A stretch of 64,000 bases of DNA. Source: a virus. A program made the position numbers and the translations under genes. Under the pieces are notes generated by a model that did no database searches, was not told the origin of the DNA, and worked only from the letters and a program-made list of their open reading frames with translations. Location of the stretch: IMG/VR virus record IMGVR_UViG_3300037067_026753; one strand, given 5' to 3'. Numbering within the stretch: position 1 is the stretch's first letter; each line of letters starts with the position of its first letter. Below, piece by piece: positions 18,214-39,337 of the stretch.

Positions 18214-18438
18214 TTATTCAAATGTGCCTGCCGGGGTTATAGTATTTATAACTGTGATTTCCTGGTTCTTGTTTTTGGTGGGAGCATCGAAAGAAACCGT
18301 GGTGATGTTGATTCCTTTTTTTGCCAGGGCATTGAGGATTTTGGCAATTCTTTTGGTGAAGGTGGCTTGAGTTTCTTCATCGGTTTTGATTAGGTTGACT
18401 TGCATTTGCTCTCCTTTGTTTGTTGTTGAATTGTGCAT
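18214..18438 (-). CDS. cassette gene, hypothetical (74 aa)
   Basis: Preceded by the element GCGATATAACT...AAAAGGAGAG. Confidence 0.5.
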   Translation of the reverse strand: MHNSTTNKGEQMQVNLIKTDEETQATFTKRIAKILNALAKKGINITTVSFDAPTKNKNQEITVINTITPAGTFE

Positions 18439-18477
18439 AAACTCTCCTTTTGTTGTACAAGAGTTATATCGCTTGTT

Positions 18478-18723
18478 TTACTTGTACCTGCCAATTAGCT
18501 GGTCGTAGATTTGTACTGCTTCATAGAGCCCAATGTTTGTGGCAGTGCGCAAGCTTTTGACAAATTCGAGTTTCGTTGGAGCTGGGGTTGACATTAACCA
18601 GTCATCGGCATATTTTCTGGCTTCGTCGAAAGTGTATGTTATCTTGAGTTTTTTCAAGATGTCATCGTCCGGGTATCTTGTCAAAAGAGTGTGATGTTGT
18701 TCCGAAGTTAAAATGACGTACAT
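18478..18723 (-). CDS. cassette gene, hypothetical (start MYVILT)
   Basis: Promoter/SD element at 18725-18790. Confidence 0.5.
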   Translation of the reverse strand: MYVILTSEQHHTLLTRYPDDDILKKLKITYTFDEARKYADDWLMSTPAPTKLEFVKSLRTATNIGLYEAVQIYDQLIGRYK

Positions 18724-18859
18724 AAACTCTCCTTTTTGTTGATAGTAAGTATATCGCAAGTAAGGAGAGACACTGCCCGCAAACCGACTAGCATAAAACA
18801 AGTTAGGGCCCATGTAATATATAGGCCCTTGGCTTGCGGTGTGCTAAACCAGGTCGCTG

Positions 18860-19297
18860 TTAGGTGTCGCTGGTTTCGTCATAATGAATGGTGAAGGAGA
18901 TTGTCAGTTTTTTGTCGTCGAATTTGAAGTTGGTGTAGTAGGAGTCCACAAAGCAGTCATCCCTGCCATGGTAGGTGAAATCGAAGTACCGCAAGTCATC
19001 CCAGTATTCCCGGACTGACATGTCTTTGGCAGCGATCTTGACGCCCTCGGACGTCTCATATTCCCGGTGTTCCTCGGTGGGATTGTCGTAGGCATGCTTG
19101 ATTTTGTCGTAGAGTGCCTGGTCACAGCCAAAGGTGATTGTCAAGCCCTCATTTTTGAGATCGCGGAGTTCCGGCAGTTTGTTGGGCAAGCGGTTTTTCC
19201 AGTTTTTGGTTTCGAAAGCTTTAAGGGTGAGGTCGGTGATTACCAATGACTTGAGTTTCTTGGACTTGACCGTGACCGTTTTCTTGCTGATTTCCAT
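18860..19297 (-). CDS. cassette gene, hypothetical (145 aa)
   Basis: Element TTGGCA-N18-GATATAATT...AAAGGAGAGAG upstream. Confidence 0.55.
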   Translation of the reverse strand: MEISKKTVTVKSKKLKSLVITDLTLKAFETKNWKNRLPNKLPELRDLKNEGLTITFGCDQALYDKIKHAYDNPTEEHREYETSEGVKIAAKDMSVREYWDDLRYFDFTYHGRDDCFVDSYYTNFKFDDKKLTISFTIHYDETSDT

Positions 19298-19375
19298 ACC
19301 CTCTCTCCTTTGTTAAGTGGTTTTTCCTTTGATAGTAATTATATCGCAAGAAAACAATCTGATTGCCAAAAACAA
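19298..19375 (-). promoter_or_regulatory. cassette promoter with 5' leader (representative copy)
   Basis: Minus strand reads TTGGCAATCAGATTGTTTTCTTGCGATATAATTACTATCAAAGG...AACAAAGGAGAGAG then ATG. Confidence 0.6.
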
Positions 19376-19413
19376 AACGGGGCCCGTAGGCCCCAGGGTG
19401 AAGGGAAAGCGCA

Positions 19414-19785
19414 TTAGGCAGTTGCCAGGGCGGTGGTGTCGGCGGCCGGTGCTTTGGCAGTTTTGGTCGTCTTCTTGCTGCTTTGCTTGAAGTATTTCGC
19501 CAGGATCTTGTCGAGGTCAACCGTGTCCTCCACACCGGCGATGATTCCGCGGACGCTGCCGAGGTGGCATTTCTCGATCTGTTCACCGGTGTACGCCTTG
19601 ACCCGGTCCCCGAGTTCCTTGAGAACGCTGGTGACTTCCAGGGCTCTGCCTTTGAGAATCGCTTTCTTTTCGCCCCGGACGAAGGTGATGCAGGTTTTCT
19701 TCGCGATCATTTCGACACCGGCCGGCAGCGTGACTGCGTTCACTGCAATTGCGTTGGTGTTGGCGGTTGCGGCTTTCTTGCTCAT
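19414..19785 (-). CDS. small basic protein, paralog of 22742..23026
   Basis: The core …VTLPAGVEM…ITFVRGEKKAILKGRALEVT…IEKCHLG… is shared with the paralog. Own promoter element at 19790-19850. Confidence 0.55.
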   Translation of the reverse strand: MSKKAATANTNAIAVNAVTLPAGVEMIAKKTCITFVRGEKKAILKGRALEVTSVLKELGDRVKAYTGEQIEKCHLGSVRGIIAGVEDTVDLDKILAKYFKQSSKKTTKTAKAPAADTTALATA

Positions 19786-19842
19786 AGAAACTCCTTTGAA
19801 AAGGTTGATTGATTTGTTGTTGATAGTGATTATATCGATTGT

Positions 19843-20004
19843 TTTACGCCTGACTGCCAGCCTGTGTTTCGCTCTCTGCTGGCCTATTGTCAATTGCCAT
19901 GTCAGCCAAGAAAGAGATAAGTTGTTTTTCAGCTTGTTCTCTCTTTCTGAACCTGTCAAAGATTGCTTGTTGCTTGGGACTTGCTTTTTTATATTTGCGT
20001 TCCA
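19843..20004 (-). CDS. small ORF (MERKYKK…, about 54 aa)
   Basis: SD AGGAGGAGGA and an upstream GCGATATGA. Not in the ORF track. Confidence 0.3.
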
Positions 20005-20048
20005 TGTGAATCCTCCTCCTTCATATCGCCAGAAGAGAAAAAGGCTGC

Positions 20049-20237
20049 CTAATTGGCAGCCTGAGTACGCTGGTCAAGCCGTATTGCGCTGGGGAATTCG
20101 ATTTTCGGCGTGGTGCCCCGGGCAGCCATGATTGCGGCTTTTTCAACCTGGAACTGCGCCATTGCCAACCGGATGCTCTCTTCGATTTCACGGTTGCGCA
20201 TACGTTTCGGATATAGGGTCCTGGTTACTTCAGCCAT
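20049..20237 (-). CDS. cassette gene, hypothetical (MAEVTRTLYPK…, 62 aa)
   Basis: Element CGCGATATAGTAATTG...AACAAAGGAGAGAAAATG. Confidence 0.5.
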   Translation of the reverse strand: MAEVTRTLYPKRMRNREIEESIRLAMAQFQVEKAAIMAARGTTPKIEFPSAIRLDQRTQAAN

Positions 20238-20367
20238 TTTCTCTCCTTTGTTGAGTACAATTACTATATCGCGGGTTTTTAGTGGGCTTGCCAAATCAGC
20301 GCGGGCCCGACGAGCAAACACAAAGCTCCCACCTATAGGTAACCTATGGGCATGAGCTTGAATGTGC

Positions 20368-20647
20368 TTAGGGATTGTACCAGAACACTAGGATAAAGGT
20401 ATAACCGGTTTGAGTTTTGGCGAAGTTTTCGATGCCATAGAAGTCGATCGAAGATCTGCCAAGGTCATTGTCCTCGAGGAAATCGAGCACATTTTCTTCG
20501 CTGAGATCATTGGCAGTCGTGAGTTTGACCGGGACTCTTGACTTGTCGTTCTCATCCCGGATATCGATAATTTCTTTGGCTTTCAAATTTCTGGCAACTT
20601 GGTACAAGCTCGGCAGACTGGTAGCAATGATACCAGAAAGCGTTCAT
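20368..20647 (-). CDS. cassette gene with a frame inconsistency
   Basis: The SD-associated ATG at 20647 opens a 31-aa frame. The long 79-aa frame (20368..20607) begins with TTG in another frame. Confidence 0.3.
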
Positions 20648-20673
20648 TAACTCTCTCCTTTGTTGTGCAATAA

Positions 20674-21003
20674 CTATATCGTTGTCAGGTCCAGTGGCTG
20701 CCATAGTTCGATTTGTTCGATAGCCAGTTGCAAGTCAGCCAAGTTTTTGATTTGACCCTCCCACTGGAGTATTGGGCTTATAGGGTTCAACTTGAACCCA
20801 TGGATCGAATGGATTCTGCCACTCGGATAAATGACAAAGTCAATCTCCTCATCGTTGATTCTGTCATATATGGTGGCAAAAATTGAGGGTATGGTAGAGT
20901 CGCTGTCTTGGTGGTCAAGAAATACAGCTGTAAACCGTTTGGGCAATATGGCAGCCAGGGTTTCTTTTGTGAGAATGTGCATGTGCGAATTTAAGACATT
21001 CAT
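20674..21003 (-). CDS. cassette gene, hypothetical (109 aa)
   Basis: Intact ORF with an AAGGAG region upstream. Confidence 0.45.
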   Translation of the reverse strand: MNVLNSHMHILTKETLAAILPKRFTAVFLDHQDSDSTIPSIFATIYDRINDEEIDFVIYPSGRIHSIHGFKLNPISPILQWEGQIKNLADLQLAIEQIELWQPLDLTTI

Positions 21004-21064: not shown

Positions 21065-21130
21065 AGCCCTCAATTGCTCCAACGCCCATGAGCACCAGAA
21101 TGCCAACCAAGTAGATCCCCATAACCATAA
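21065..21130 (-). CDS. 21-aa hydrophobic micro-protein (MVMGIYLVGILVLMGVGAIEG)
   Basis: Has its own complete promoter/SD cassette (CACGATATCAAC...AACAAAGGAGAGAGTT then ATG). Confidence 0.35.
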
Positions 21131-21436
21131 CTCTCTCCTTTGTTGTGGTGTAGAGTTGATATCGTGCGTTTTGTGTTTGGCAACCAACACAGTTTCGGGC
21201 GATATAGTTAATACTGCTAAACGGCGAGGGCTTGTGCAGGGAGATCGGGGTAGTGTATTTGCTAAACTTGCTTGCTTACGCGTTATACGCTCTTGTACTT
21301 GCATACGCCTGCGCTTGTATACGCACTATAGCGCTTATAAAAACAAAAAAGGTAGGAGCCAAAGGCGCCCTGCCTGGGCACTCATTGGCTACCTACCAGT
21401 TAAAGGAGAGAGAGATTTTGAGGTGAATTTCGCTTG

Positions 21437-21805
21437 TTATGCGGCTGCAATTTTTTCTCTGGCAGTCATGACTTTTGCAGCCAAGTCCGTGAACCGAGTT
21501 TCTTCCTCAGCAAGTTTCTTTTTATATTCAGCTTCGATCGCTGCCATGCGATCAGCATGATCTTGATGAACATCACCCGCATGCTCAATCAAGTCATAGG
21601 CAGAGTAGATATCGTCAGCGTAAGCGCTGTAGCCCATGCCAGGGCCTGAGCGGCTCAACTTGCTGTGTGGCACGTTGACAAGTACGATTCTTGCCTTAGA
21701 GTACTTTTTGCGATCATTGGCAATGCGCGTCTTGACTTCTTCTTTGTCAGATGAATAGATGCCCGTGAAATGCAGGCCTTGAGCGTGTGCTTGTTGTTCG
21801 TTCAT
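21437..21805 (-). CDS. cassette gene, hypothetical (start MNEQQAH)
   Basis: Element at 21806-21850. Confidence 0.5.
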   Translation of the reverse strand: MNEQQAHAQGLHFTGIYSSDKEEVKTRIANDRKKYSKARIVLVNVPHSKLSRSGPGMGYSAYADDIYSAYDLIEHAGDVHQDHADRMAAIEAEYKKKLAEEETRFTDLAAKVMTAREKIAAA

Positions 21806-21834
21806 AGTTTTGCTCTCCTTTTGTTTGATAAGAG

Positions 21835-22242
21835 CTATATCGAGCGTTTCCGGCATGCATGCCATTGATCAATTGCTTTTTGTACGCTGTTTGGCATGCT
21901 GTCTGCCAGTTCTTCGTCATTCATTACCATGTCAAGAGCATCTTCGGCAGCTTTGAGTCTTGCTTTATCAACTGCAAGACATTTTCGTGTCTCATCGCTT
22001 GATGGCTGGAATGTATTCCCTTCATCACCAACTTCAATAAGGCCTTCATGGATCAAGCCGGAAAGCTGTGTGGCAATTTCATACATTTCACATTCCATAC
22101 CCTGTGACTTCAGGTAGGAATAAATCTCTTTGGCAGTCACTGGCGCCACAGCATAGATATACTCTTTGATAACGGACCTTCGAATTGCAAGACCCTTGTT
22201 TGCTTGTATTTCTTCAGCAGTCTTTCGAATTTTCTTATCCAT
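21835..22242 (-). CDS. cassette gene, possible winged-helix protein
   Basis: Element CTCGATATAGCTTCTATCACCAACAAGGAGAGAAACG then ATG. Confidence 0.5.
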   Translation of the reverse strand: MDKKIRKTAEEIQANKGLAIRRSVIKEYIYAVAPVTAKEIYSYLKSQGMECEMYEIATQLSGLIHEGLIEVGDEGNTFQPSSDETRKCLAVDKARLKAAEDALDMVMNDEELADSMPNSVQKAIDQWHACRKRSI

Positions 22243-22481
22243 CGTTTCTCTCCTTGTTGGTGATAGAAGCTATATCGAGCGTTGAGCGGGCTTTGCCAAA
22301 TCGCGTTTGAGCAAAAGCATACTTTGGTGTATATAAGGCCCTGCATCACTTGTAACGGCGCAATTGATGGCGACTTGCAGCGGGACACGGCACATTCTTG
22401 CATAGTCTCTTGCCCAGTTCATTGCCATGGCTTGAGTTTTTCTTCGCCTATTTGTGCAATCCATTCAAGATCAAGTTGAGC

Positions 22482-22631
22482 GCTCATTGTCTGCCCTCTT
22501 TCTTGAGGATTGCATGCAAGACATACAAGTCGATTATTTCTCTGTTGAGTTGACGTACTTGTTCAGTCACGCCAGCTTTTTGTACTACGTGGAGCAGTTT
22601 GAGTTTTGATTCGATTTGAAGTTCAAAGTTC
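22482..22631 (-). CDS. small cassette ORF (49 aa, MNFELQIES…)
   Basis: Element at 22632-22670. Below the ORF-track size cutoff. Confidence 0.35.
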
Positions 22632-22741
22632 ATACTTTATCTCCTTGTACTGACTATATCGAGAGCAAAAGCACAAGCCGCCATAAAACAAAAAGAGCCC
22701 TGGAGTTAACCAGAGCTCTTCCTGCCCGTGGAATTGGCAGC

Positions 22742-23026
22742 TTACTTGTAATAGGCGGCCAGGATTTTGGTCAGGTCGATGGCATCGGCCACGCCACGGA
22801 CGACGCCCTTGATCGCGCCGAGGTGGCATTTTTCGATGATTTCCTCGGTGTACGTTTCGATGCGCTTGAGCGTCTTGGGCGTGTTGGTGACTTCCAGGGC
22901 CCGGCCCTTGAGCACCGCTTTCTTTTCACCGCGGATGAACGTGATCGCGGATTTGCCGGGTTTCATTTCCACGCCCTTGGGCAGCGTAACGGCATTCAGG
23001 TCAATGGCGGCAACTGCTTTACTCAT
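22742..23026 (-). CDS. small basic protein, paralog of 19414..19785
   Basis: See the paralog entry. Confidence 0.55.
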   Translation of the reverse strand: MSKAVAAIDLNAVTLPKGVEMKPGKSAITFIRGEKKAVLKGRALEVTNTPKTLKRIETYTEEIIEKCHLGAIKGVVRGVADAIDLTKILAAYYK

Positions 23027-23159
23027 AGTAACTCCTTGAAAAGGTTGTGTTCCTCCTGATAGAGGTTATGTCGCATGTTTTTGCAGGACCTGCCAATGTA
23101 CTTACTTGTAGTATTGCTGCTACGCGCGTATAGCGCGCACGCAAGCGCTTGAGCACAAA

Positions 23160-23218
23160 CAAAAAAGGTAGGGAGTTACAAGGGTGTTGAGCACCCATTG
23201 GCTACCTACCATGTGTAT
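23160..23218 (-). terminator. intrinsic terminator (repeated element, copy B)
   Basis: Minus strand GGTAGGTAGCCAATGGGTGCTCAACACCC...CCCTACC followed by TTTTTTGTTTGT. A near-identical copy lies at 21350-21405. Confidence 0.55.
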
Positions 23219-23379
23219 TAAGTTAGAAAGAAGAATTCGTCCAGCGAACTTGCAGTGTTGAGAGCGATTGCCAGATTGAGAAAGTCTTCTTGGCCAATTA
23301 CTGTGTCACGGTCAGGCCGTCCACCCAGGAACGGGATACTTACTGGTATCTGGTATTTTGTTTTTTGTGTGCGTTCCAT
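23218..23379 (-). CDS. small cassette ORF (53 aa)
   Basis: Element CTCGATATAGTTTTTAACAACTAACAAGGAGAGAGAGTT then ATG. Confidence 0.4.
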   Translation of the reverse strand: MERTQKTKYQIPVSIPFLGGRPDRDTVIGQEDFLNLAIALNTASSLDEFFFLT

Positions 23380-23552
23380 AACTCTCTCTCCTTGTTAGTT
23401 GTTAAAAACTATATCGAGAGATTTTGAGTAACTACCAACATAGCTACGACTGTGCGTAGCACAACAAGTCGTTATTATATATTGTACCATTAAGTGTAGT
23501 GCAATAAAACAGCGCTGGGCCCCGTAGGGCCCTTGGCTGTAAGGAGAGAAAG

Positions 23553-24197: not shown

Positions 24198-24339
24198 AGA
24201 AACTCCTTTGGTTAAAGTACGTTCACTATGTCGCTCAATTTTGGCTGGGCTGCCTTGAAATGTTTTCTGTGTTCGTGACAGTAACCCATGATATCTCTCC
24301 TTGTTAGAAGCTATATCGTGAGTTTATACTGTTTTGCCA

Positions 24340-32860: not shown

Positions 32861-32927
32861 TGCTCTCTCCTTGTTAGTGTTTTTCCTTACACTAACTATA
32901 TCGTGAGTTCTCGCTGTTTAGCCAATG

Positions 32928-33255: not shown

Positions 33256-33588
33256 TTACGTAGTTACTGGCTCTTCAAACTTGGGCTTCTCTTTTGCCAT
33301 TTTAAACATGCCAAACAACATGTGCAAAGGGCTGGTAAGCAACCAGAGCACTAACCACACAATCAAGTATATAACCATAGTACCTATAAAGGTAAACATG
33401 GTTTCAAACCCTGGTTCTGTTGGTGCTCCATATTTCAAAACTGCACTTGCAAATACCGGGCAACCAACCAGCACGGCAATTATCCCCACCCATTCCAATA
33501 TGGGTACAACATGACAGAGCAACTTCCAAAAGAAAGTTACTATGTATATAATCGGAATCGTGATCAGGGCCATAACGACTACAGCCAT
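33256..33588 (-). CDS. small integral membrane protein (110 aa)
   Basis: Three hydrophobic helices. Element CACGATATAGAAAGTAACAGGAGGTGATAT then ATG. Confidence 0.5.
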   Translation of the reverse strand: MAVVVMALITIPIIYIVTFFWKLLCHVVPILEWVGIIAVLVGCPVFASAVLKYGAPTEPGFETMFTFIGTMVIYLIVWLVLWLLTSPLHMLFGMFKMAKEKPKFEEPVTT

Positions 33589-33687
33589 ATATCACCTCCT
33601 GTTACTTTCTATATCGTGTATTGTTTAAAAACAGCCAAGGGCGCCCAACCAATATGCGCCCCAGCTATAAAAGGTTTGCTACTTGCT

Positions 33688-34566
33688 TTAGTTCGCCAGT
33701 GCAACCGCCGTTTTCCAGGCTTCCTCTTTCAGGTAACTGGCGCCCAGCACGCTGTTTGCCAGCCGTGTTTCTGCATCCGCACTCCGGTAATGATCAATCC
33801 ACTCGATATAACCGTTGTACAAGTCGTACAACGTCCCCTGCCCGGTGCCCTTACCGGCTTCGTAAAGTTCGGTCACCTTGTTTATCAGGTTTTTCTGGCG
33901 GGTCCCGCCCTCTGCACCGCTGAAGCATTCCTTGATGAATTTGTCAACCATGGCCGCATCGCACACCACCTGTGCAAGCACCTTGCACTGTGCTTCGAAC
34001 TTGTCGAAGTAAGCGGTGCCCTGGGCAAGTATCCGCATGGCTTCACCGGCTTTGACTTCGCCGTTTTTGGTATGATGCACTTTGCATTTATTTTCGTTCG
34101 CCCAGCCCATCAGGCCGTTCTTGCATACCTGACGCCAGACGCGGTAGATCGCCGTGAAGGGATAGGAACCGTCGAAGGTGTTGATCAGCTGAATTTTACG
34201 GAATGTTTCGTCGCCCTTGCGTATTTCAACCGGGCTCCCCACCGTGGCTTCCAGGATGAGTTTGCGCCCGCCGTCGATCACGTATGCACTGGTGTACTTG
34301 GCGTTGTTCTGCTGACATGCGGTATCGAACCAGGCATATGCAAAGGAGTTCTGCAAGGGAGTATACCGATCTCCCACTAGCCCGATGATTGCGTGATTGT
34401 CGCTCCGCACCACGGCTTTGTTGTCCGGGATTTTGATACCTGCAGGTATGTCGCCGGCACCGAGAGTCTGTATGGGCACCAGTTCGGCGCGCCATTTTGA
34501 TTCGCTCTTATCGAGCGCTTCTTCTGCGGTTGTAACTCCGCCAAGGTCATAAAACGTTGCTTTCAT
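33688..34566 (-). CDS. hypothetical protein (292 aa), tentatively DUF932-like mobile-element protein
   Basis: Own element at 34567-34620. The family resemblance is from memory only and unverified. Confidence 0.4.
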   Translation of the reverse strand: MKATFYDLGGVTTAEEALDKSESKWRAELVPIQTLGAGDIPAGIKIPDNKAVVRSDNHAIIGLVGDRYTPLQNSFAYAWFDTACQQNNAKYTSAYVIDGGRKLILEATVGSPVEIRKGDETFRKIQLINTFDGSYPFTAIYRVWRQVCKNGLMGWANENKCKVHHTKNGEVKAGEAMRILAQGTAYFDKFEAQCKVLAQVVCDAAMVDKFIKECFSGAEGGTRQKNLINKVTELYEAGKGTGQGTLYDLYNGYIEWIDHYRSADAETRLANSVLGASYLKEEAWKTAVALAN

Positions 34567-34622
34567 AACTCTGCTCCTTGGTTAAGGGTTTTGTTGGTTA
34601 CAAAAGCAATATCGTGTGTTTC

Positions 34623-34964
34623 TCACCGTTTTGCCAAAACTGCTGCAACTTTATGGTGCAACGCCAACATACCCCGTATATCCTTAGCTGTCAGTCTGTG
34701 TGCAAACGGGTATTGATAAGCATCACCGAGTGGCAGGTGTATTAGTACTACCGGGGCTAAACTTACAATTATGTAGCGGGCATCTCCGTCAGCCACGCCA
34801 AAACTGATTTCTTCTCCGGCTTCGGGCCATTTACCATGCTCCTTTGCCCAGGCTTTCACCTGCTCAACAAAAGCATGTTCTCGTATTACGTTCTCTTCTC
34901 TGGGCAACTTATGGTCCCATTTGGGAGCCTCGATACCTTTTGGTGGGTCATATACTTTCCCCAT
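34623..34964 (-). CDS. cassette gene, hypothetical
   Basis: Element CGCGATATAGCAAATAACAAGGAGGGATA then ATG. Confidence 0.5.
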   Translation of the reverse strand: MGKVYDPPKGIEAPKWDHKLPREENVIREHAFVEQVKAWAKEHGKWPEAGEEISFGVADGDARYIIVSLAPVVLIHLPLGDAYQYPFAHRLTAKDIRGMLALHHKVAAVLAKR

Positions 34965-35026
34965 TATCCCTCCTTGTTATTTGCTATATCGCGTGCTGCT
35001 CATGGTTCTGCCTATACCCGAACCAC

Positions 35027-35478: not shown

Positions 35479-35837
35479 TTTTCGTACTCCGGCTTCCACA
35501 TTACAAAGTTCAAGTACTGCTGCTCAGTCCACTCGTACTCAATATCATTGCCGAAAGTCAACTGGTACTGTACAGCTTCAACAAGCGTATCATGCACTGC
35601 TTTTGTATAGGTTATCCCATACCTTGGTATGTTTTCACGCAGCCCGCTCGCCAAACTACAATTTATAAGGTATAGGATTTTATGGTTAGGCATGTCGAGC
35701 AAAGCGACGATCATGTTAGCCACTTTATGTGCCAACTCAATCATTACCTGTGGTATTGCTTCAGGGTGCTCAAGGTCAATCCCACACCCAGCCAAAAAAA
35801 CCTCGCACAACCGGCTACGTTCATTTTGCGTGTTCAT
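35475..35837 (-). CDS. cassette gene, hypothetical
   Basis: Element CACGATATGGTTAGAGTAATAAAGGAGAGAGT then ATG. Confidence 0.5.
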   Translation of the reverse strand: MNTQNERSRLCEVFLAGCGIDLEHPEAIPQVMIELAHKVANMIVALLDMPNHKILYLINCSLASGLRENIPRYGITYTKAVHDTLVEAVQYQLTFGNDIEYEWTEQQYLNFVMWKPEYEK

Positions 35838-35931
35838 ACTCTCTCCTTTATTACTCTAACCATATCGTGCGCTCAAAACAAAAAAGCCAAGGTTACCCCT
35901 GGCTCATTTTATACTTGTTAGTTCTTTATTT

Positions 35932-36846: not shown

Positions 36847-37121
36847 ATTAGGTCCCTCTCTCCCTGTTCGTAAATACGAAAATCAGTTTCCTCTCGTGCA
36901 ATTTCATCAAGCGTAGTTTCGAGCTGCTTAAGCATTTGTTCAGCCGCTCGCTTGTCAGCAGCTATACGCATACACTTGTCGTATCGTTCACTGGGCATAC
37001 ACGGCCTGCACGTATCAAACTGGCATGTTTCAAACGTAAGTATGTCAATTTGAGTAATTTCGGGCAGTGCCTCAGCCGCCTGCTGCGCTCTCATTTCGCG
37101 TTCGTTGCTGTCATCCCACAT
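36843..37121 (-). CDS. cassette gene, hypothetical acidic protein
   Basis: Element CACGATATAGCAACTAACAAGGAGTTGTT then ATG. Confidence 0.5.
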   Translation of the reverse strand: MWDDSNEREMRAQQAAEALPEITQIDILTFETCQFDTCRPCMPSERYDKCMRIAADKRAAEQMLKQLETTLDEIAREETDFRIYEQGERDLI

Positions 37122-37163
37122 AACAACTCCTTGTTAGTTGCTATATCGTGTGAAGCCAGGCTC

Positions 37164-37268
37164 CTTACCAGGTCATGTTCTTAAACACCTGGCGGTGCTT
37201 GCCAAAACCGAAATCCAAATAAACCACGCACTTGGGCTGCATCTTAAAAAACTTACGTACCTGTGCCA
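37164..37268 (-). CDS. 34-aa micro-ORF (MAQVRKFFKMQPK…)
   Basis: SD AACAAGGAGCAAGTT precedes the ATG. Lies between the FtsK-like gene and the next cassette. Confidence 0.3.
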
Positions 37269-37290
37269 TAACTTGCTCCTTGTTTAGGTG

Positions 37291-38379
37291 TTACTTGCCA
37301 CATATTTTCTTTATATCAGGTTCGGGCACCCATATGCCCTGGTATTTTGTCAACTCTCCATTGCACTTAAATAATAACTCTCCAGCTCCTTTAAGGCGCT
37401 CAGCCCCCGGCTCATCAAGTATTATGCGACTATCTTGTCTGCTCTCTACTCTAAAAGCCACCCTTGCTGGCATGTTAGCCTTTATCAAACCTGTCATTAT
37501 TTCGACTACCGGGCGCTGTGTTGCCATTACAATATGCATACCAGCAGCCCTTGCCAACTGTGCCAACCGAGTTATTTTATCACTTATTGTCTTGTCTTCG
37601 CTCTGCATCATCAAGTCAGCCACCTCATCAATTACCAAAACTATATATGGTAACTTTGTTTTGGCTACTTGGTTATATGCATCAAGAGATTTAACGTCGT
37701 GCCTTGCAAGCAACTCATACCGGCTCTCCATTTCGTCTACCAAACTACTAAGCAAACCGCTTGCTTGGTCAAGTTTAGTAGCTATAGGTGCATACAAGTG
37801 CGGTACGCTCCGGTACAAAGCAAACTCAACCCGTTTTGGGTCAACCAATGCGAGTTGCACTTGCTCCGGCTGTAATTTATACAACAAACTCAGTATAGCA
37901 ACGTTCAAGAAAACAGATTTACCCGAGCCAGTAGTACCGGCTACCAATAAATGGGGCATACGGCTCAAATCAATTACCTTGTTTGCGCTCAATACTACTG
38001 GCAACCGCTCATTTGCTATATGATTAAAGGTTGTTATGCCCGTAAAATCAAGTGGAGTGGCATTAACTACAGGAGTGCTAACGTCTGGTGTAGTTGATGC
38101 CACTAAATCTGCAGGAAACATTATCAAATACTTGCTCACTTCAAAATCAATCTCTCCTATATATTTAAGGTCGCGCTCAATTTTATCAAGCTTACTCGCT
38201 ATCATCCCTACGTTCACACGTTTTATGCGCTCTACCTCGTCCTCCACCTCACTATAATGTAACCTGGCCTGCATTTGCCTTATGTCTAACGGGCTCGCGC
38301 CGCACCCTACCATGCTACTCAACGTTTTACACAACGCCCGGTCAACTTTCAAAGTTTCCAATATCTCCTTAAGATTCAT
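37291..38379 (-). CDS. FtsK/SpoIIIE-family DNA translocase ATPase (soluble motor domain only)
   Basis: Walker A LVAGTTGSGKSV. Walker B IVLVIDEVADLMM. FtsK signature ATQRP…ARVAFRV. No N-terminal TM region or gamma domain. Confidence 0.75.
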   Translation of the reverse strand: MNLKEILETLKVDRALCKTLSSMVGCGASPLDIRQMQARLHYSEVEDEVERIKRVNVGMIASKLDKIERDLKYIGEIDFEVSKYLIMFPADLVASTTPDVSTPVVNATPLDFTGITTFNHIANERLPVVLSANKVIDLSRMPHLLVAGTTGSGKSVFLNVAILSLLYKLQPEQVQLALVDPKRVEFALYRSVPHLYAPIATKLDQASGLLSSLVDEMESRYELLARHDVKSLDAYNQVAKTKLPYIVLVIDEVADLMMQSEDKTISDKITRLAQLARAAGMHIVMATQRPVVEIMTGLIKANMPARVAFRVESRQDSRIILDEPGAERLKGAGELLFKCNGELTKYQGIWVPEPDIKKICGK

Positions 38380-38425
38380 AGTCGCTCCACATGGGTTATT
38401 GGTTTACGTAGCGTTATATCGTGCG
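38380..38425 (-). promoter_or_regulatory. cassette promoter for the FtsK-like gene; a second gene-less copy lies at 38490-38515
   Basis: CACGATATAACGCTACG...GGAGCGACT then ATG. A tandem upstream copy reads CACGATATAGTGTATAGG. Confidence 0.5.
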
Positions 38426-38829
38426 CTTTTCCTTAACTAACCAAAACATACATGCTAAATACTCGCCAGGGTACTATACCCATGTTTACCCTATACACTA
38501 TATCGTGTGCTATATTGCTGGCAGCCACAACACACCCGCCAAAAATTGTACCCTGCCAAAACTATAACAAAACAGTTAAACAGCGCGCACAAGCAGCCAA
38601 ATAACAACTCTAACACACTAAAAGCTATCTAGCGTTGTAGCGCTATCACCACATGAATTACAAGATTTAGAGCAACCTACTTGTGGAATTTACTAACATA
38701 TTTACTAGCATAAAAGGTAGGAATATAGCACAACATATAACTCATACAAAAAGAGCGGAGCAAACCGTGGTAGCACTCCATAAGTTCACCCCGCCCAGTA
38801 TTGCATAAGAGTTACGAAAGGAGAAGCTC

Positions 38830-39246
38830 TTACGCAAAATATTTGGTTACCAACTCGTTCAACTCGTCCTGGCTGGTCACTTTCCCCAGCATACGCGTTT
38901 TCCCCAGGTGGTTCTTCTTCGCTTCTTCCTCGCTTACTGCTTTAAAACCCTTCAACCCGGTTACCTTATGGGTCAAACCCACACTGGCTCCACGTACCCA
39001 CATACGTTTCTCTCCGGCTTCTGCCGTAATTACGTACTTGGTCTCATTCACGGTCACGCCCTTGGTTGCCTTAATTTTCAAAGGCTCCTTCTTCACACGC
39101 GGCTGCTTTGCCTTCTTGTCCTTGTCTACCGGCTTAGTCTGCTTGGGTTCCGGTTTTTTCCCTGTTGCGGCTTTCTTCGCCATTTCGTCTTCTCCTCCTA
39201 CCGGCTGCGTATCTCCCGCCTCCGGAATCGTTCCTGTATCGCCCAT
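38830..39246 (-). CDS. lysine-rich histone-like (H1/Hc1-like) DNA-binding protein
   Basis: N-terminal AKKAATGKKPEPKQTKPVDKDKKAKQPRVKK tail, followed by a small globular C-terminal domain. Confidence 0.45.
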   Translation of the reverse strand: MGDTGTIPEAGDTQPVGGEDEMAKKAATGKKPEPKQTKPVDKDKKAKQPRVKKEPLKIKATKGVTVNETKYVITAEAGEKRMWVRGASVGLTHKVTGLKGFKAVSEEEAKKNHLGKTRMLGKVTSQDELNELVTKYFA

Positions 39247-39337
39247 ATCGTCAACTCCTTCTAGAAAATCAGTTGAACTAGCATCTACAGCATAAATTTA
39301 TATCGTGCACTCAATATTATGTCTTTTATTTTACAGT

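What the first reader, a model, noticed from the sequence alone, without database searches (positions are those of the whole stretch)
18214..39310. Array of about 40 promoter-leader-ORF-terminator cassettes sharing a near-invariant 27-nt upstream element
Almost every minus-strand gene between 18.2 and 39.3 kb is preceded by the same element. Read on the minus strand it is C(A/G)CGATATAG(C/T)T, then (A/T)CTAACAAGGAGAGA, then 5-8 nt, then ATG. In many copies TTGGCA lies 17-18 nt upstream of GATATA. I located about 35 copies, at about 18465, 18752, 19340, 19840, 20267, 20675, 21160, 21838, 22273, 22657, 23077, 23412, 24228, 24313, 25079, 25613, 25890, 26313, 26768, 27107, 28018, 28622, 29823, 30562, 32899, 33159, 33612, 34607, 34985, 35862, 37143, 38415, 38498 and 39298. 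Many cassettes end in a hairpin plus T-run before the next element. Genes are mostly single, 50-360 aa and unrelated to each other. This modular, insulated layout resembles phage early host-takeover regions or the shuffling-prone promoter/stem-loop mini-modules of T4-type phages. Conservation extends well beyond a -10 box into the 5' UTR. That suggests either a shared translational leader or a site that promotes cassette exchange.
Basis: seen in the sequence. Interest (0 to 1): 0.8.

Follow-up and report, generated by a model that had tools for sequence, protein, structure and literature searches.

The report
Huge-phage promoter–leader cassette array
A 21-kb stretch of a very large uncultivated phage genome carries about 33 copies of one unusual promoter with a ribosome-binding leader, each driving one to three small genes; related phages have gained, lost or swapped genes at these copies, so this is a known style of phage genome organisation using a promoter sequence I found described nowhere.

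Summary
The repeat is real and far beyond chance. There are 32 composite sites on the minus strand of 18.0-39.5 kb, against 0.11 expected.

It is not one invariant 27-mer. It has three parts:
- a two-box promoter, tTGGCA, then 16 or 17 bp, then CTCaCGATATAG;
- a short conserved stretch tied to the promoter (GTTacTATCA);
- a ribosome-binding site, AAGGAGAGA, at a variable distance.

About 33 promoters serve 42 genes. Roughly 15 units end in good terminator hairpins.

The same architecture recurs in a 194.6-kb IMG/VR viral contig and in about 20 metagenomic contigs. Together these give 240 non-redundant sites in sequence of 31-48% GC.

Between close relatives, insertion, deletion and replacement breakpoints fall on the promoter-leader. 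Several insertions are bracketed by two promoter copies that both align to one copy in the other genome.

This matches the T4-type PeSL concept (promoter, terminator stem-loop, ribosome-binding site, small ORFan gene). The setting differs: a phage of at least 424 kb, and a non-canonical -10 box.

The -10 box has C-13, G-12 and A-11 and no T at -7. That resembles promoters read by group-3 sigma factors such as sigma-28. Which sigma factor reads these promoters, where transcripts start and when the genes are expressed were not shown.

The parts
18214..39329 (-). Whole array: 42 minus-strand genes in about 33 transcription units. GC is about 0.47, against about 0.33 in the flanks.
   Evidence: Nearly all genes are ORFans.
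39244..39329 (-). Weak unit: CGATATAA at 39305 with no TTGGCA-like -35 box, leader, ATG at 39246 (138 aa, paralog family c0).
38465..38528 (-). Promoter-like site: GTGGCT, 17 bp, CGATATAG (C at 38505). It lies in tandem, upstream of the next promoter.
38377..38444 (-). Promoter TTGGTT, 17 bp, CGATATAA (C at 38421), with leader. Drives the FtsK/SpoIIIE-like gene and a 34-aa ORF.
37291..38379 (-). FtsK/SpoIIIE-family ATPase gene (362 aa).
   Evidence: PF01580, E = 5.6e-51
37119..37171 (-). Promoter CTGGTA, 17 bp, CGATATAG (C at 37148), with leader. Drives genes of 92 and 304 aa.
35835..35890 (-). Promoter TTGGCT, 17 bp, CGATATGG (C at 35867), with leader. Drives a three-gene operon (120, 77 and 73 aa).
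34962..35014 (-). Promoter TAGGCA, 17 bp, CGATATAG (C at 34991), with leader. Drives a 113-aa gene.
34564..34637 (-). Promoter TTGGCA, 17 bp, CGATATTG (C at 34614), with leader. Drives the DUF932 gene.
33688..34566 (-). DUF932 gene (292 aa).
   Evidence: PF06067, E = 2.5e-29
33586..33638 (-). Promoter TTGGCT, 16 bp, CGATATAG (C at 33616), with leader. Drives a 110-aa gene.
33132..33187 (-). Promoter TTGGCA, 17 bp, CGATATAG (C at 33164), with leader. Drives a 68-aa gene.
32858..32925 (-). Promoter TTGGCT, 16 bp, CGATATAG (C at 32903). Its 43-nt leader starts with the hairpin TTAGTGT...ACACTAA. Drives rIIA.
   Evidence: The hairpin is also present in the UViG ortholog.
30683..32860 (-). rIIA-like gene (725 aa).
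   Evidence: phrog_612, E = 1.2e-69
30539..30591 (-). Promoter CGGGCA, 17 bp, CGATATAG (C at 30568), with leader. Drives genes of 99 and 56 aa.
29794..29854 (-). Promoter TTGGCA, 16 bp, CGATATAG (C at 29832), with leader. Drives rIIB.
28711..29796 (-). rIIB-like gene (361 aa).
   Evidence: phrog_609, E = 2.2e-56; PF26926
28597..28650 (-). Promoter TTGGCA, 16 bp, CGATATAG (C at 28628), with leader. Drives genes of 127 and 57 aa.
27994..28047 (-). Promoter TTGGTA, 16 bp, CGATATAG (C at 28025), with leader. Drives a 123-aa gene.
27078..27136 (-). Promoter TTGGCA, 16 bp, CGATATAA (C at 27114), with leader. Drives a 94-aa gene.
26737..26797 (-). Promoter AAGGCA, 16 bp, CGATATAG (C at 26775), with leader. 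Drives a 104-aa gene.
26287..26342 (-). Promoter GTGGCA, 17 bp, CGATATTG (C at 26319), with leader. Drives a 125-aa gene.
25865..25918 (-). Promoter TCGGTA, 17 bp, CGATATAG (C at 25895), with leader. Drives an 80-aa gene.
25588..25643 (-). Promoter CCGGCA, 17 bp, CGATATAG (C at 25620), with leader. Drives a 116-aa gene.
25049..25106 (-). Promoter TTGGCT, 16 bp, CGATATAG (C at 25084), with leader. Drives genes of 135 and 71 aa.
24287..24340 (-). Promoter ATGGCA, 16 bp, CGATATAG (C at 24318), with leader. Drives a 25-aa micro-ORF (MGYCHEH...).
24195..24256 (-). Promoter AAGGCA, 17 bp, CGACATAG (C at 24233), with leader. Drives a 214-aa gene.
23377..23438 (-). Promoter TTGGTA, 16 bp, CGATATAG (C at 23416), with leader. 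Drives a 53-aa gene.
23024..23096 (-). Degenerate promoter TTGGCA, 17 bp, CGACATAA (C at 23073), with leader. Drives a 94-aa gene (paralog family c0).
22631..22684 (-). Promoter ATGGCG, 17 bp, CGATATAG (C at 22661), with leader. Drives a 49-aa gene.
22240..22299 (-). Promoter TTGGCA, 16 bp, CGATATAG (C at 22277), with leader. Drives a 135-aa gene.
21803..21865 (-). Promoter ATGGCA, 17 bp, CGATATAG (C at 21842), with leader. Drives a 122-aa gene.
21126..21187 (-). Degenerate promoter TTGGTT, 17 bp, CGATATCA (C at 21164), with leader. Followed by a short ORF and then the 109-aa gene.
21177..21207 (+). The only plus-strand copy: TTGGCA, 17 bp, CGATATAG. It lies back to back with the promoter at 21164.
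21213..21400 (+). Region downstream of the plus-strand promoter with no convincing RBS-led ORF. Candidate small RNA.
   Evidence: -68.7 kcal/mol, z = -2.6
20645..20704 (-). Promoter ATGGCA, 17 bp, CGATATAG (C at 20681), with leader. Drives a 31-aa ORF.
20235..20294 (-). Promoter TTGGCA, 17 bp, CGATATAG (C at 20271), with leader. Drives a 62-aa gene.
19783..19860 (-). Promoter CTGGCA, 17 bp, CGATATAA (C at 19837), with leader. Drives a 123-aa gene (paralog family c0).
19295..19369 (-). Promoter TTGGCA, 17 bp, CGATATAA (C at 19346), with leader. Drives a 145-aa gene.
18721..18779 (-). Promoter CGGGCA, 17 bp, CGATATAC (C at 18756), with leader. Drives an 81-aa gene. A replacement breakpoint against L172 lies 29-31 nt downstream.
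18436..18494 (-). Promoter TTGGCA, 17 bp, CGATATAA (C at 18471), with leader. Drives the last gene of the array (74 aa).
38753..38796 (-). Terminator-like hairpin followed by TTTTTGTA (-21.8 kcal/mol).
35884..35905 (-). Terminator-like hairpin followed by TTTTGTTT. The T-run leads into the -35 box of the promoter at 35867.
33631..33668 (-). Terminator-like hairpin (-18.6 kcal/mol) that overlaps the -35 box of the promoter at 33616.
33204..33234 (-). Terminator-like hairpin followed by a T-run (-17.8 kcal/mol).
30613..30645 (-). Hairpin after rIIA (-14.6 kcal/mol) with a weak T-run.
28657..28684 (-). Terminator after rIIB (-18.3 kcal/mol). Its T-run TTTTGTTTGGCA runs into the -35 box of the promoter at 28628.
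26374..26399 (-). Hairpin (-16 kcal/mol) with a weak T-run.
24589..24632 (-). Hairpin followed by TTTTAT (-14.5 kcal/mol).
23509..23540 (-). Terminator-like hairpin (-19.3 kcal/mol).
23167..23210 (-). Terminator-like hairpin followed by TTTTTTGT (-18.4 kcal/mol).
22688..22725 (-). Terminator-like hairpin (-24.7 kcal/mol). Its T-run leads into the -35 box of the promoter at 22661.
21352..21396 (-). Terminator-like hairpin followed by CTTTTTTG (-27.7 kcal/mol).
20042..20062 (-). Terminator-like hairpin followed by TTTTCTCT (-15 kcal/mol).
19378..19395 (-). Terminator hairpin GGGGCC-loop-GGCCCC. Its T-run TTTTGTTTTTGGCA runs into the -35 box of the promoter at 19346.
18798..18837 (-). Terminator-like hairpin (-17.7 kcal/mol).
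53229..53286 (-). Copy outside the array: GTGGCA, 16 bp, CGATATAC. Drives a 70-aa ORF.
58048..58111 (-). Copy outside the array: TTGGTT, 17 bp, CGATATAA. No clear ORF follows.
60694..60765 (-). Copy outside the array: TCGGCA, 17 bp, CGATATAG. Drives a 63-aa ORF.
63480..63555 (-). Copy outside the array: TTGGCA, 17 bp, CGATATTG. Drives a 67-aa ORF.

Best explanation
Each element is a bacterial-type promoter fused to a short translation leader. The array is a hyperplastic, probably early-expressed gene region of a huge uncultivated phage of at least 424 kb.

**How it works**
- An RNA polymerase holoenzyme carrying a sigma-70-family factor binds a -35 box, tTGGCA. It also binds an extended -10 box, CTCaCGATATAG, 16 or 17 bp downstream.
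- With GATATA placed at -12 to -7, transcription is predicted to start at the conserved T-A step 13 nt after the C of CGATATAG. This is the A of TATCAA. For rIIA that is about position 32890.
- The resulting leader is roughly 20-35 nt long, A/C-rich and mostly unstructured.
- The leader carries a strong ribosome-binding site specific to the array, AAGGAGAGA. The GGAG lies 5-8 nt before the start codon in most genes.
- About half of the units end in an intrinsic terminator, and its T-run often runs into the next -35 box.
- The result is many small, strongly and independently expressed genes. They include rIIA, rIIB, an FtsK-like ATPase, a DUF932 protein and about 38 ORFans, plausibly host-takeover or anti-defence functions.

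**Which sigma factor**
The -10 box has C-13, G-12 and A-11 and no T at -7. This is the recognition logic of group-3 sigma factors such as sigma-28, whose box is GCCGATAA. It is not that of housekeeping sigma-70. I therefore lean, at about 55%, towards a dedicated sigma factor, possibly phage-encoded, rather than the host's primary one.

**Second role**
The roughly 45-60-bp elements are near-identical and repeated head to tail. They act as portable patches of homology where cassettes are inserted, deleted and replaced, as described for T4-type PeSLs.

**Shown versus inferred**
- Shown: the motif statistics, its architecture, its conservation across relatives, and breakpoints coinciding with the element.
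- Inferred: promoter activity, the start site, the identity of the sigma factor, early timing and the recombination mechanism.
For: - **Excess over chance.** There are 32 composite sites against 0.11 expected, with a 32:1 strand bias. Unbiased 8-mer counts recover both motifs.
- **Strict two-box geometry.** In 214 CGATATA sites from the family, GGCA ends exactly 16 nt upstream in 55 and 17 nt upstream in 107. Only 8 cases fall at any other distance between 8 and 30.
- **Uninformative spacer.** The spacer carries no information in a logo built from 240 sites.
- **Boxes conserved regardless of gene.** The boxes are as conserved between promoters of unrelated genes (79-81% identity) as between orthologous ones (79-87%). 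The spacer is 30% identical in unrelated pairs and 45% in orthologous pairs. Sequence upstream of the -35 box is at random level.
- **Position relative to genes.** Sites lie 24-52 nt upstream of start codons that have a ribosome-binding site, for 29-32 of 42 genes.
- **Terminators.** Terminator hairpins are enriched 4-5-fold just upstream of sites. About 15 good ones lie in the window.
- **Same architecture elsewhere.** A 194.6-kb IMG/VR contig with about 70% nucleotide identity in shared genes has 38 sites in 34 kb. About 20 metagenomic contigs also carry it.
- **Array-specific RBS.** AAGGAGAG occurs 23 times on the minus strand of the array and not at all outside it.
- **Not canonical sigma-70.** A generic TTGACA/TATAAT scan finds only one of the sites and no overall excess.
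- **Fit to group-3 sigma logic.** Sigma-28 reads (-15)GCCGATAA(-8). It contacts -12G, flips -11A and needs no conserved -7 base. Its -35 element lies at -36 to -30 (PMC12784957). Here CGATAT falls at -13 to -8 and TTGGCA at about -36 to -30.
- **Cassette exchange.** Twenty-two of 32 homology breakpoints between close relatives lie within -40 to +45 of a site, against about 26% expected (P about 6e-7). In four events the alignments overlap by 21-85 nt. In three of these one promoter aligns to both promoters flanking an insertion; in the fourth the shared stretch lies just upstream of the promoter.
- **Gene order.** Gene-family order shows a conserved backbone with cassette gains, losses and moves.
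- **Phage context.** The surrounding genome encodes rIIA and rIIB, ribosomal protein bS21, an intein-containing RtcB, a suppressor-type tRNA and mostly ORFans. The longest contig carrying these proteins is 424 kb.
Against: - No transcript data exist. Start sites, promoter activity and timing are all inferred.
- No sigma-factor gene was found in the roughly 100 kb of this genome that could be inspected.
- The host is unknown, so an unusual housekeeping sigma factor cannot be excluded.
- Only about half of the units in the window, and 15% across the family under a strict rule, have a terminator. Much read-through is therefore likely.
- The clustering of breakpoints on the element is partly expected anyway. 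Viable indels must fall between genes, and the promoter fills most of the intergenic space.
- The phage nature of the genome rests on gene content and on IMG/VR listing a relative. No capsid or terminase gene was seen.
- NCBI labels the same proteins 'Candidatus Nanoarchaeia archaeon'.
Confidence: 0.75

Rival explanations
1. The elements are ordinary early promoters read by the host's housekeeping sigma factor. The odd -10 box reflects the promoter preference of an uncharacterised host lineage, much as Bacteroidota use TAnnTTTG. No phage sigma factor is involved. The cassette architecture and the shuffling are as in the best explanation.
For: - In T4-type phages the equivalent elements use host sigma-70-like promoters, and their consensus shifts with the host (PMC4122927).
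- TTGGCA matches TTGACA at 5 of 6 positions, and the spacing fits sigma-70 geometry.
- rIIA and rIIB are classically early genes; this rests on my own knowledge.
- No sigma-factor gene was seen in the inspected part of the genome.
Against: - GATATA has no T at -7, the base that sigma-70 flips out and that is conserved in sigma-70 promoters (PMC12784957).
- In one genome for each of 185,579 species, the strict pattern gave only 14 scattered single hits, and no genome had several.
- The element is unchanged across phage sequence of 31-48% GC.
Confidence: 0.35
2. The repeats are RNA-level signals in one long polycistronic transcript, such as processing sites, antitermination (boxA-like) sites or a common translational enhancer, and not sites of initiation.
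For: - The conserved sequence continues downstream of the -10 box (GTTacTATCAA).
- In the window it resembles boxA loosely (GCTTCTAACAA against GCTCTTTAACAA, the latter recalled from my own knowledge).
- The ribosome-binding site flavour is uniform.
Against: - The strongest conservation is in two boxes separated by an uninformative spacer of exactly 16 or 17 bp.
- The distance to the ribosome-binding site is variable.
- Terminator hairpins with T-runs sit immediately upstream, and some merge into the -35 box.
- The family-wide consensus, TTACTATCAAC, departs from boxA.
- Rfam finds no RNA family in the window apart from one tRNA.
Confidence: 0.05
3. The elements are dedicated recombination sites of a cassette-capture system, analogous to integron attC/attI, and their promoter-like appearance is secondary.
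For: Breakpoints of insertions, deletions and replacements coincide with the element, and insertions are bracketed by two copies.
Against: - No integrase or other site-specific recombinase was found in the array.
- The element is not palindromic like attC.
- It always lies 5' of an RBS-led ORF in the sense orientation.
- Crossover points are spread from -35 to +38 and are not at one position. That fits general homologous recombination over short homology, as proposed for PeSLs (PMC2839356).
Confidence: 0.07
4. The region is not phage early DNA. It is the leading (first-transferred) region of a conjugative or plasmid-like element, where anti-defence genes are expressed immediately on entry. The promoters work as described, but in that setting.
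For: - An FtsK/SpoIIIE-like ATPase, a DUF932 protein, a NikA-like protein near 42.6-42.9 kb and a pilin-like protein are encoded nearby.
- An iteron-like repeat and a strand switch lie next to the start of the array.
- The genes all run in one direction.
Against: - No relaxase or type IV secretion genes were seen.
- The wider genome carries rIIA and rIIB, bS21, a suppressor-type tRNA and an intein-containing RtcB, and is mostly ORFans, which is typical of huge phages.
- A relative is listed as a viral genome in IMG/VR.
- A relative's array holds a GIY-YIG homing endonuclease.
Confidence: 0.08
5. The elements are archaeal-type promoters, with CGATATAG as the TATA box, because NCBI assigns these contigs to a Nanoarchaeia genome bin.
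For: The NCBI names for identical proteins read 'Candidatus Nanoarchaeia archaeon'. GATATAG is TATA-like.
Against: - An archaeal TATA box lies about 24-28 bp from the start site; this rests on my own knowledge. That would put the start at or beyond the conserved ribosome-binding site, whose distance from the motif also varies from 14 to 60 nt.
- The second box, 16 or 17 bp upstream, has no archaeal counterpart.
- The genome encodes bacterial ribosomal protein bS21 and a pilin-like protein with the N-terminal methylation motif (Pfam N_methyl).
- Only about 10% of its genes have any Pfam hit, which does not fit a cellular genome.
Confidence: 0.02

Closest known systems
PeSLs (promoter-early stem-loops) of T4-type phages (Arbiol et al. 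2010, PMC2839356; Comeau et al. 2014, PMC4122927)
   Same: - Composite unit: terminator stem-loop, then a -35 box, a spacer of about 17 bp and a -10 box, then a ribosome-binding site and ATG.
- Many copies are concentrated in a hyperplastic region full of small ORFans.
- Indels and replacements between close relatives are bounded by the elements.
- Crossovers fall between the -10 box and the ATG. PMC2839356 maps them there; here breakpoints lie at +21 to +38 from the -10 box.
- rIIA and rIIB homologs are present in the region.
   Different: - The -10 box is CGATATAG, not TATAAT-like, and the -35 box is TTGGCA.
- Only about half of the units in the window, and 15% across the family, have a stem-loop terminator.
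- The genome is at least 424 kb, uncultivated and not demonstrably T4-like; rIIA is at most 31% identical to T4-group proteins.
- Mini-circles were not tested.
- The ribosome-binding site variant is private to the array.
Host-takeover module of Bacillus phage SPO1 (named in PMC6873191 and PMC10531801; details from my own knowledge of Stewart et al. 1998)
   Same: A cluster of two to three dozen small early genes of unknown function. They are arranged in many short transcription units with strong promoters, strong ribosome-binding sites and terminators, and nearly all run in one direction.
   Different: SPO1 uses canonical sigma-A promoters, and its module sits in the terminal redundancy. Here the promoter is non-canonical and the position relative to the genome ends is unknown. 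No protein homology was detected.
Sigma-28 / FliA / SigD (group-3 sigma factor) promoters, TAAA-N15-GCCGATAA (PMC4183435; PMC12784957)
   Same: - The core of the -10 box is CGATA(A/T), with C at -13, G at -12 and A at -11, and no conserved T at -7.
- The upstream box occupies about -36 to -30.
- The overall spacing is the same.
   Different: - The upstream box is TTGGCA, not (TC)TAAAG.
- The two bases before CGATA are C-A, not G-C.
- The genes are phage ORFans, not flagellar genes.
- No FliA-like gene was identified.
Canonical sigma-70 / sigma-A promoters (TTGACA-N17-TATAAT)
   Same: Two-box layout, a 16-18-bp spacer, a -35 box matching at 5 of 6 positions, and A at -11.
   Different: The -10 box matches at only 3 of 6 positions, with no T at -12 and no T at -7. 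A consensus scan does not pick the sites up.
Leading regions of conjugative plasmids, which carry anti-defence islands (own knowledge of Samuel et al. 2024; not checked here)
   Same: A one-directional block of many small, variable genes that is expressed first on entry. DUF932-type genes occur there.
   Different: Those regions use single-stranded-DNA hairpin promoters (Frpo/ssi) and lie next to oriT and a relaxase. Here the promoters are ordinary double-stranded two-box sites, and the genome looks like a phage.

Membership tests
PeSL regulatory cassettes (T4-type phages) | A two-box promoter (-35 box, spacer of about 17 bp, -10 box) directly followed by a ribosome-binding site and the start codon of a small gene. 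| tested here: met
   29-32 of 42 genes have it. The spacer is strictly 16 or 17 bp.
PeSL regulatory cassettes (T4-type phages) | The promoter is sigma-70-like (TTGACA/TATAAT or a host-shifted variant such as TTTACW...TAYWAT). | tested here: not met
   The -10 consensus is CGATATAG, with no T at -12 or -7. The sigma-70 consensus scan finds 1 of about 33 sites.
PeSL regulatory cassettes (T4-type phages) | A stem-loop terminator lies just upstream of the promoter. | tested here: inconclusive
   About 15 of roughly 33 units in the window have one. Across the family, 15% of sites do under a strict rule, against 3-4% at random positions.
PeSL regulatory cassettes (T4-type phages) | The elements are concentrated in hyperplastic regions rich in ORFans. 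| tested here: met
   Site density is 1.5 per kb in the array, against 4 sites in the other 42.5 kb. The genes are ORFans. Cassette content varies among relatives.
PeSL regulatory cassettes (T4-type phages) | Indels and replacements between close relatives are bounded by the elements, with crossovers between the -10 box and the ATG. | tested here: met
   22 of 32 breakpoints lie within -40 to +45 of a site (P about 6e-7). Four events show overlapping alignments, three of them promoter-on-promoter.
PeSL regulatory cassettes (T4-type phages) | Excised mini-circles form during infection. | not testable with these tools
   This needs inverse PCR or long reads from infected cells or virions.
PeSL regulatory cassettes (T4-type phages) | The host genome is a T4-like myovirus. 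| tested here: inconclusive
   Only rIIA and rIIB homologs were seen, at 27-31% identity to T4-group proteins and 38% to an uncultured 462-kb phage. No T4 core genes lie in the inspected 100 kb.
Sigma-28 / FliA-type (group-3 sigma factor) promoters | The -10 element is GCCGATAA: C-13, G-12 and A-11 are conserved and -7 is not. | tested here: met
   The consensus is CaCGATATAG, and the core CGATA is the commonest word. Numbering is from PMC12784957. The GC at -15/-14 is replaced by C-A.
Sigma-28 / FliA-type (group-3 sigma factor) promoters | The -35 element is TAAA(G) at about -36 to -30. | tested here: not met
   The box at that position is tTGGCA.
Sigma-28 / FliA-type (group-3 sigma factor) promoters | A cognate group-3 sigma factor is encoded by the phage or its host. 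| not testable with these tools
   Only about 100 kb of the genome of at least 424 kb could be read, and it holds no Sigma70_r2 or r4 hit. The host is unknown.
Sigma-54 promoters | GG at -24 and GC at -12, ten bases apart (TGGCAC-N5-TTGC). | tested here: not met
   TTGGCA resembles the -24 box, but nothing is conserved 5-9 nt downstream of it. Only a few UViG copies have TGGTAG-N5-TTGCA.
Promoters of single-subunit (T7-like) or virion phage RNA polymerases | One contiguous recognition sequence of about 20 bp at fixed register, or a hairpin for N4, with no separate -35 box. | tested here: not met
   There are two boxes with two spacer classes and an uninformative spacer.
Integron gene cassettes | Imperfectly palindromic attC sites lie 3' of cassettes, with an adjacent integrase. 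| tested here: not met
   The element lies 5' of the ORFs and is not palindromic. No integrase was found among the array's proteins.

The most novel reading that the evidence does not exclude
The array is the regulon of a sigma factor supplied by the phage. That factor reads the -10 box the way group-3 sigma factors do (CGATA, no T at -7) and has a new -35 specificity (TTGGCA). A whole clade of huge phages would then run its host-takeover and anti-defence programme on a private promoter code. The same cassettes carry a private ribosome-binding site flavour (GGAGAGA), which might be linked to the phage-encoded ribosomal protein bS21. The promoter-leader unit would also be the mobile module by which new genes are plugged into that programme.
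Probability: 0.3. Interest if true: 0.7.

Novelty: new variant of a known kind. Interest (0 to 1): 0.5.

Why it matters
The motif gives a ready-made, testable promoter code for an uncultivated clade of huge phages found in landfill, digester, sludge and sediment metagenomes.

- **Finding early genes.** Scanning for TTGGCA-N16/17-CGATATAG picks out the class of small genes, probably expressed early, that are prime candidates for host-takeover and anti-defence functions. It does so in any related contig.
- **A possible new sigma specificity.** The -10 box follows group-3 sigma logic rather than sigma-70 logic. It therefore points to either a phage-supplied sigma factor or a host lineage with an unusual housekeeping promoter. 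Either would be new information about transcription.
- **Cassette shuffling beyond T4.** The breakpoint data extend the PeSL idea, in which regulatory cassettes act as sites of modular gene shuffling, beyond T4-like phages.

Practical side results:
- The strict pattern found about 20 related contigs in one scan, so it works as a clade marker.
- A public genome bin labelled Nanoarchaeia appears to contain contigs of this phage.

Tried and rejected
**Searches that led nowhere**
- Megablast of the array against 50,697 phage records found no match.
- A search for related loci in viral contigs using the window's rIIA protein found no confirmed relative.
- The strict pattern in one genome for each of 185,579 species gave only 14 scattered single hits and no multi-copy genome. 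It therefore gave no host and no prophage.
- The nearest GenBank phage by rIIA is LR756500.1 (462 kb, 24% GC). It lacks the motif.
- Host inference from the phage bS21 pointed to Chitinispirillaceae as the closest named homolog, at 69% identity. That genome has 52% GC, weak ribosome-binding sites and no motif.
- PHROG, Pfam and PDB searches of the array's ORFans found nothing.
- A full-text literature search for the octamer found only primers and unrelated sequences.
- A test for stop-codon recoding, prompted by the CTA-anticodon tRNA, gave no sign of it in the window.
- Walking along the parent contig to look for a sigma-factor gene is not possible with the look-up rules.

**Ideas considered and rejected**
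- Sigma-54 promoter: there is no -12 GC element.
- T7-like or N4-like phage polymerase promoter: the site has two boxes with a variable spacer.
- Archaeal TATA box: the geometry is incompatible with the ribosome-binding site.
- boxA or another RNA signal: the family consensus differs, and the conservation lies upstream of the likely start site.
- Integron-like attC site: there is no integrase and no palindrome.
- Reading the -10 box as TATAGT with CGA as an extended -10 element: this would need a 19-20-bp spacer, and the T at -7 is only weakly conserved.

Full report
**1. Checking the observation**

Its two halves, taken separately, are highly repeated.

- CGATATAG-like octamers pile up on the minus strand from 18.4 to 39.3 kb.
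- AACAAGGAGAGA-like words do the same.
- Counting all 8-mers without prior assumptions puts AAGGAGAG (23 copies) and CGATATAG (21 copies) at the top for the minus strand of 18.0-39.5 kb.

Printing the context of every copy shows a third component. A TTGGCA-like hexamer lies 16 or 17 nt upstream of CGATATAG. This composite site occurs 32 times on the minus strand and once on the plus strand of the region. Two hundred dinucleotide-preserving shuffles gave a mean of 0.11 and a maximum of 2.

A gene table for 39969-18214 lists 42 minus-strand genes.

- 39 of them have GGAG within the 22 nt upstream of the start codon, in 34 cases 5-8 nt before it.
- 29 have a composite site 15-80 nt upstream. Three more have degenerate copies.
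- 13 lie in short operons of two or three genes.
- About 15 gene ends carry a hairpin of -14 kcal/mol or better followed by a T-rich tail. Several T-runs continue directly into the next -35 box, for example ...CCCTTTTTGTTTGGCA at 28.65 kb.

The observation therefore holds, with three corrections:

- There are about 33 units, not 40.
- The element is three separable motifs, not an invariant 27-mer.
- Terminators follow about half of the units.

**2. Context of the window**

The array has about 47% GC, as does the sequence up to about 50 kb. The rest of the window has about 33% GC.

Recognisable genes in the array are an rIIA homolog, an rIIB homolog, an FtsK/SpoIIIE-family ATPase and a DUF932 protein. 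Twenty other proteins of the array that were tested have no significant PHROG hit, apart from one marginal match to a family of unknown function.

Identical proteins occur on several metagenomic contigs. The longest is 424,144 bp.

The roughly 100 kb that could be inspected encode:

- ribosomal protein bS21;
- an intein-containing RtcB;
- NAPRTase and a cellulase;
- a lipase;
- a PspA-like protein and a rhomboid;
- ion transporters;
- a pilin-like protein;
- a tRNA with anticodon CTA.

About 90% of the genes have no Pfam hit. That profile fits a huge phage, not a cell. A relative is listed as a viral genome in IMG/VR. No capsid or terminase gene was seen, so 'phage' is well supported but not proven. 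NCBI labels the same proteins 'Candidatus Nanoarchaeia archaeon', which I take to be a binning artefact.

**3. Relatives**

A scan of IMG/VR for TTGGCA-N16/17-CGATATAG-N8-30-AAGGAGA returned six hits on one 194.6-kb contig. The first 34 kb of that contig are about 70% identical to the window in shared genes. That stretch carries 38 sites on one strand, at 36.6% GC.

The same pattern in JGI and ENA metagenomes returned 40 stretches. About 20 contigs among them have 3-26 relaxed sites each, on one strand, at 1-3 per kb and 31-48% GC.

In one genome for each of 185,579 bacterial and archaeal species, the pattern gave only 14 scattered single hits. The element is therefore the signature of a clade of uncultivated phages. 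It is not a common cellular promoter form.

**4. Anatomy of the element**

A logo of 240 non-redundant sites reads as follows:

- tTGGCAat;
- an uninformative spacer of 16 bp (83 sites) or 17 bp (157 sites);
- atCTCaCGATATAGTTacTATCAa;
- aAaaAAGGAGAGA, beginning 14-60 nt after the C of CGATATAG, with a mode of 25.

When the spacer is left free, GGCA ends exactly 16 or 17 nt upstream of CGATATA in 162 of 214 sites. It falls at any other distance between 8 and 30 in only 8.

The boxes are as conserved between promoters of unrelated genes as between orthologous promoters. The spacer and the leader keep some identity only between orthologs. Sequence upstream of the -35 box is at random level even between orthologs.

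Two rigid boxes, two spacer classes and a free spacer are what a sigma-70-family factor produces. Its domain 4 and domain 2 each contact one box. A contiguous phage-polymerase promoter or an RNA motif would not look like this.

The stretch GTTacTATCA keeps its register with the -10 box, not with the ribosome-binding site. With GATATA at -12 to -7, its conserved T-A step falls at -1/+1, which would make it the start-site region. This is an inference.

The ribosome-binding site variant AAGGAGAG occurs 23 times on the minus strand of the array and nowhere else in the window. The flanks use AAGGAGG or AAGGAGT.

**5. Which polymerase?**

The -35 box matches TTGACA at 5 of 6 positions. The -10 box is not TATAAT-like:

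- A generic sigma-70 scan detects one of the sites.
- It finds no excess of canonical promoters in 18-48 kb.

Reading the -10 box as TATAGT would need a 19-20-bp spacer, and its final T is only weakly conserved.

Aligned on CGATA, the box reads C-13, G-12, A-11, T-10, A-9, T-8. This is the core of the sigma-28 element (-15)GCCGATAA(-8). A recent sigma-28 open-complex structure shows that:

- -12G is contacted;
- -11A is flipped;
- -7 is neither conserved nor flipped;
- the -35 element lies at -36 to -30 (PMC12784957).

The position of TTGGCA fits that geometry, but its sequence differs from TAAAG.

I conclude that a sigma-70-family holoenzyme reads the element. I lean towards a dedicated group-3-like sigma factor. 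No such gene was found in the part of the genome I could read, and the host is unknown. A host with an unusual housekeeping sigma factor remains a serious rival.

**6. Cassette exchange**

Clustering the proteins of all family loci shows a conserved backbone. Its order is FtsK-like, c20, DUF932, c7, rIIA, rIIB, c15, c4, c1, c16, c2, c8, c17, c5, c6 and so on (the c-numbers are protein clusters). The backbone is interrupted by singletons and by families that change neighbours, namely c9, c21, c22 and the multi-copy c0.

Cassettes in relatives include a helicase with a putative methyltransferase (an NPPY motif I noted by eye in its sequence), and a GIY-YIG homing endonuclease.

Among pairs of loci with at least 80% identity, there are 16 non-redundant indel or replacement events. 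Homology typically ends 21-38 nt after the C of the -10 box, which is between the -10 box and the ATG. It resumes at -35 to 0 of the next element.

In four events the alignments overlap by 21-85 nt. In three of them a single promoter in one genome aligns to both promoters that flank the extra DNA in the other genome; in the fourth the shared 85 nt lie just upstream of the promoter.

Twenty-two of 32 breakpoints lie within -40 to +45 of a site, against about 26% expected (P about 6e-7). Part of this enrichment would arise from selection for intergenic junctions alone. The bracketing direct repeats, however, are the expected footprint of recombination between repeated elements.

This is the behaviour described for PeSLs in T4-type phages. 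There, crossovers were mapped between the -10 box and the ribosome-binding site or ATG, and excised mini-circles were detected (PMC2839356; PMC4122927).

**7. Comparison and verdict**

Functionally, the array works like a PeSL-rich hyperplastic region, or like the SPO1 host-takeover module. It holds many short, strongly signalled, largely independent units for small accessory genes, and the regulatory unit doubles as a recombination module.

It is not a member of the PeSL family in the strict sense. The promoter is not sigma-70-like, stem-loops are present at only a fraction of copies, and the genome is not shown to be T4-like.

It shares the sigma-28 family's -10 logic but fails that family's -35 criterion.

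I therefore call it a new variant of a known kind. The interesting residue is the promoter code itself and the question of which sigma factor reads it. Transcript 5'-end mapping and a sigma-factor search on the full 424-kb genome would settle that.

Noticed in passing
window 6913-6985 (-): A tRNA with anticodon CTA, of the amber-suppressor type; ARAGORN calls it tRNA-Pyl, and Rfam scores it as a tRNA at 60.8 bits. Such tRNAs are typical of phages that recode the TAG stop codon. However, reading TAG as a sense codon does not lengthen ORFs in this window.
   Followed up: partly
window about 18000 and about 50000: GC content jumps sharply from about 0.33 to about 0.47 and back again within one genome. 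The homologous array in the IMG/VR relative has 0.366 GC, and family loci range from 0.31 to 0.48. This suggests the whole 18-50 kb block came from a relative with higher GC.
   Followed up: partly
window 40200-47000 (+): A block of plus-strand genes has extreme GC skew (+0.35 to +0.43), meaning a G-rich, C-poor coding strand. It has no copies of the array promoter and almost no family hits. One gene near 42.6-42.9 kb is NikA-like.
   Followed up: no
window 39800-40230: The strand-switch region next to the start of the array contains several repeats. Tandem 16-mers TCTTATAGCYGTTCAG lie at 40106-40137, with a third, weaker copy at 40188. GC-rich palindromes such as GCGCATATACGCGC are also present. 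The minimum of cumulative GC skew falls here. This may be a replication origin or an operator region.
   Followed up: partly
window 21177-21400 (+): The only plus-strand copy of the promoter lies back to back with a degenerate minus-strand copy. It is followed by about 190 nt with no convincing RBS-led ORF. That stretch folds well (-68.7 kcal/mol, z = -2.6) and contains repeated TATACGC motifs. It is a candidate small RNA.
   Followed up: partly
window 38830-39246, 22742-23026, 19414-19785 (-): Three paralogs of one protein family (cluster c0) lie within the array. The family is also multi-copy in most related loci.
   Followed up: partly
window 24212-24340 (-): A full promoter-leader drives only a 25-aa ORF (MGYCHEH...) that ends inside the next promoter. 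A similar start (MSGYCET...) follows the corresponding promoter in the IMG/VR relative. In L146 the two reading frames appear to be fused into a 301-aa protein.
   Followed up: no
window 32870-32895 (-); UViG contig position about 27340: The rIIA leader begins with a hairpin, TTAGTGT-loop-ACACTAA. The hairpin is conserved in the relative that is about 70% identical. It may be a stabilising structure at the 5' end of the mRNA.
   Followed up: no
window 18000-39500 compared with the rest of the window: The ribosome-binding site variant AAGGAGAG is private to the array: 23 copies on its minus strand and none elsewhere in the window. The genome also encodes its own ribosomal protein bS21, at L185 3247-3462, roughly 6-7 kb beyond the right end of the window.
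   Followed up: partly
NCBI GCA_028717785.1 (contig JAQUND010000007.1, locus L188): Proteins identical to those of this window are deposited as 'Candidatus Nanoarchaeia archaeon'. Their content (bS21, rIIA and rIIB, a pilin-like protein with the N-terminal methylation motif, about 90% ORFans) indicates phage contigs binned into an archaeal genome bin.
   Followed up: partly
UViG loci L011 and L007 (contig positions about 4100-6400): Four promoter copies have TGGTAG in the -35 box. At least two of them continue with TTGCA after 5 nt, which gives sigma-54-like GG-N10-GC spacing inside the spacer.
   Followed up: no
window 27704-27740 (-): A composite site (TTGGCT, 16 bp, CGATATAA) lies inside the 123-aa ORF at 27625-27996. 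It may be an internal promoter or a chance match.
   Followed up: no
window about 7359-7419 (-): A variant element, TTGGCA-N17-TCATATAG, lies upstream of the 124-aa gene at 6987-7361 in the low-GC flank. It hints at a weaker class of the same promoter outside the array.
   Followed up: no
UViG contig about 12350-17050 (minus strand) and about 29200-30000: Relatives carry larger cassettes inside the array. One is a 4.7-kb insertion with a ResIII/DEAD helicase, a 430-aa protein with an NPPY motif (methyltransferase-like) and a 209-aa protein. Another is a GIY-YIG/NUMOD3 homing endonuclease next to the DUF932 gene.
   Followed up: partly
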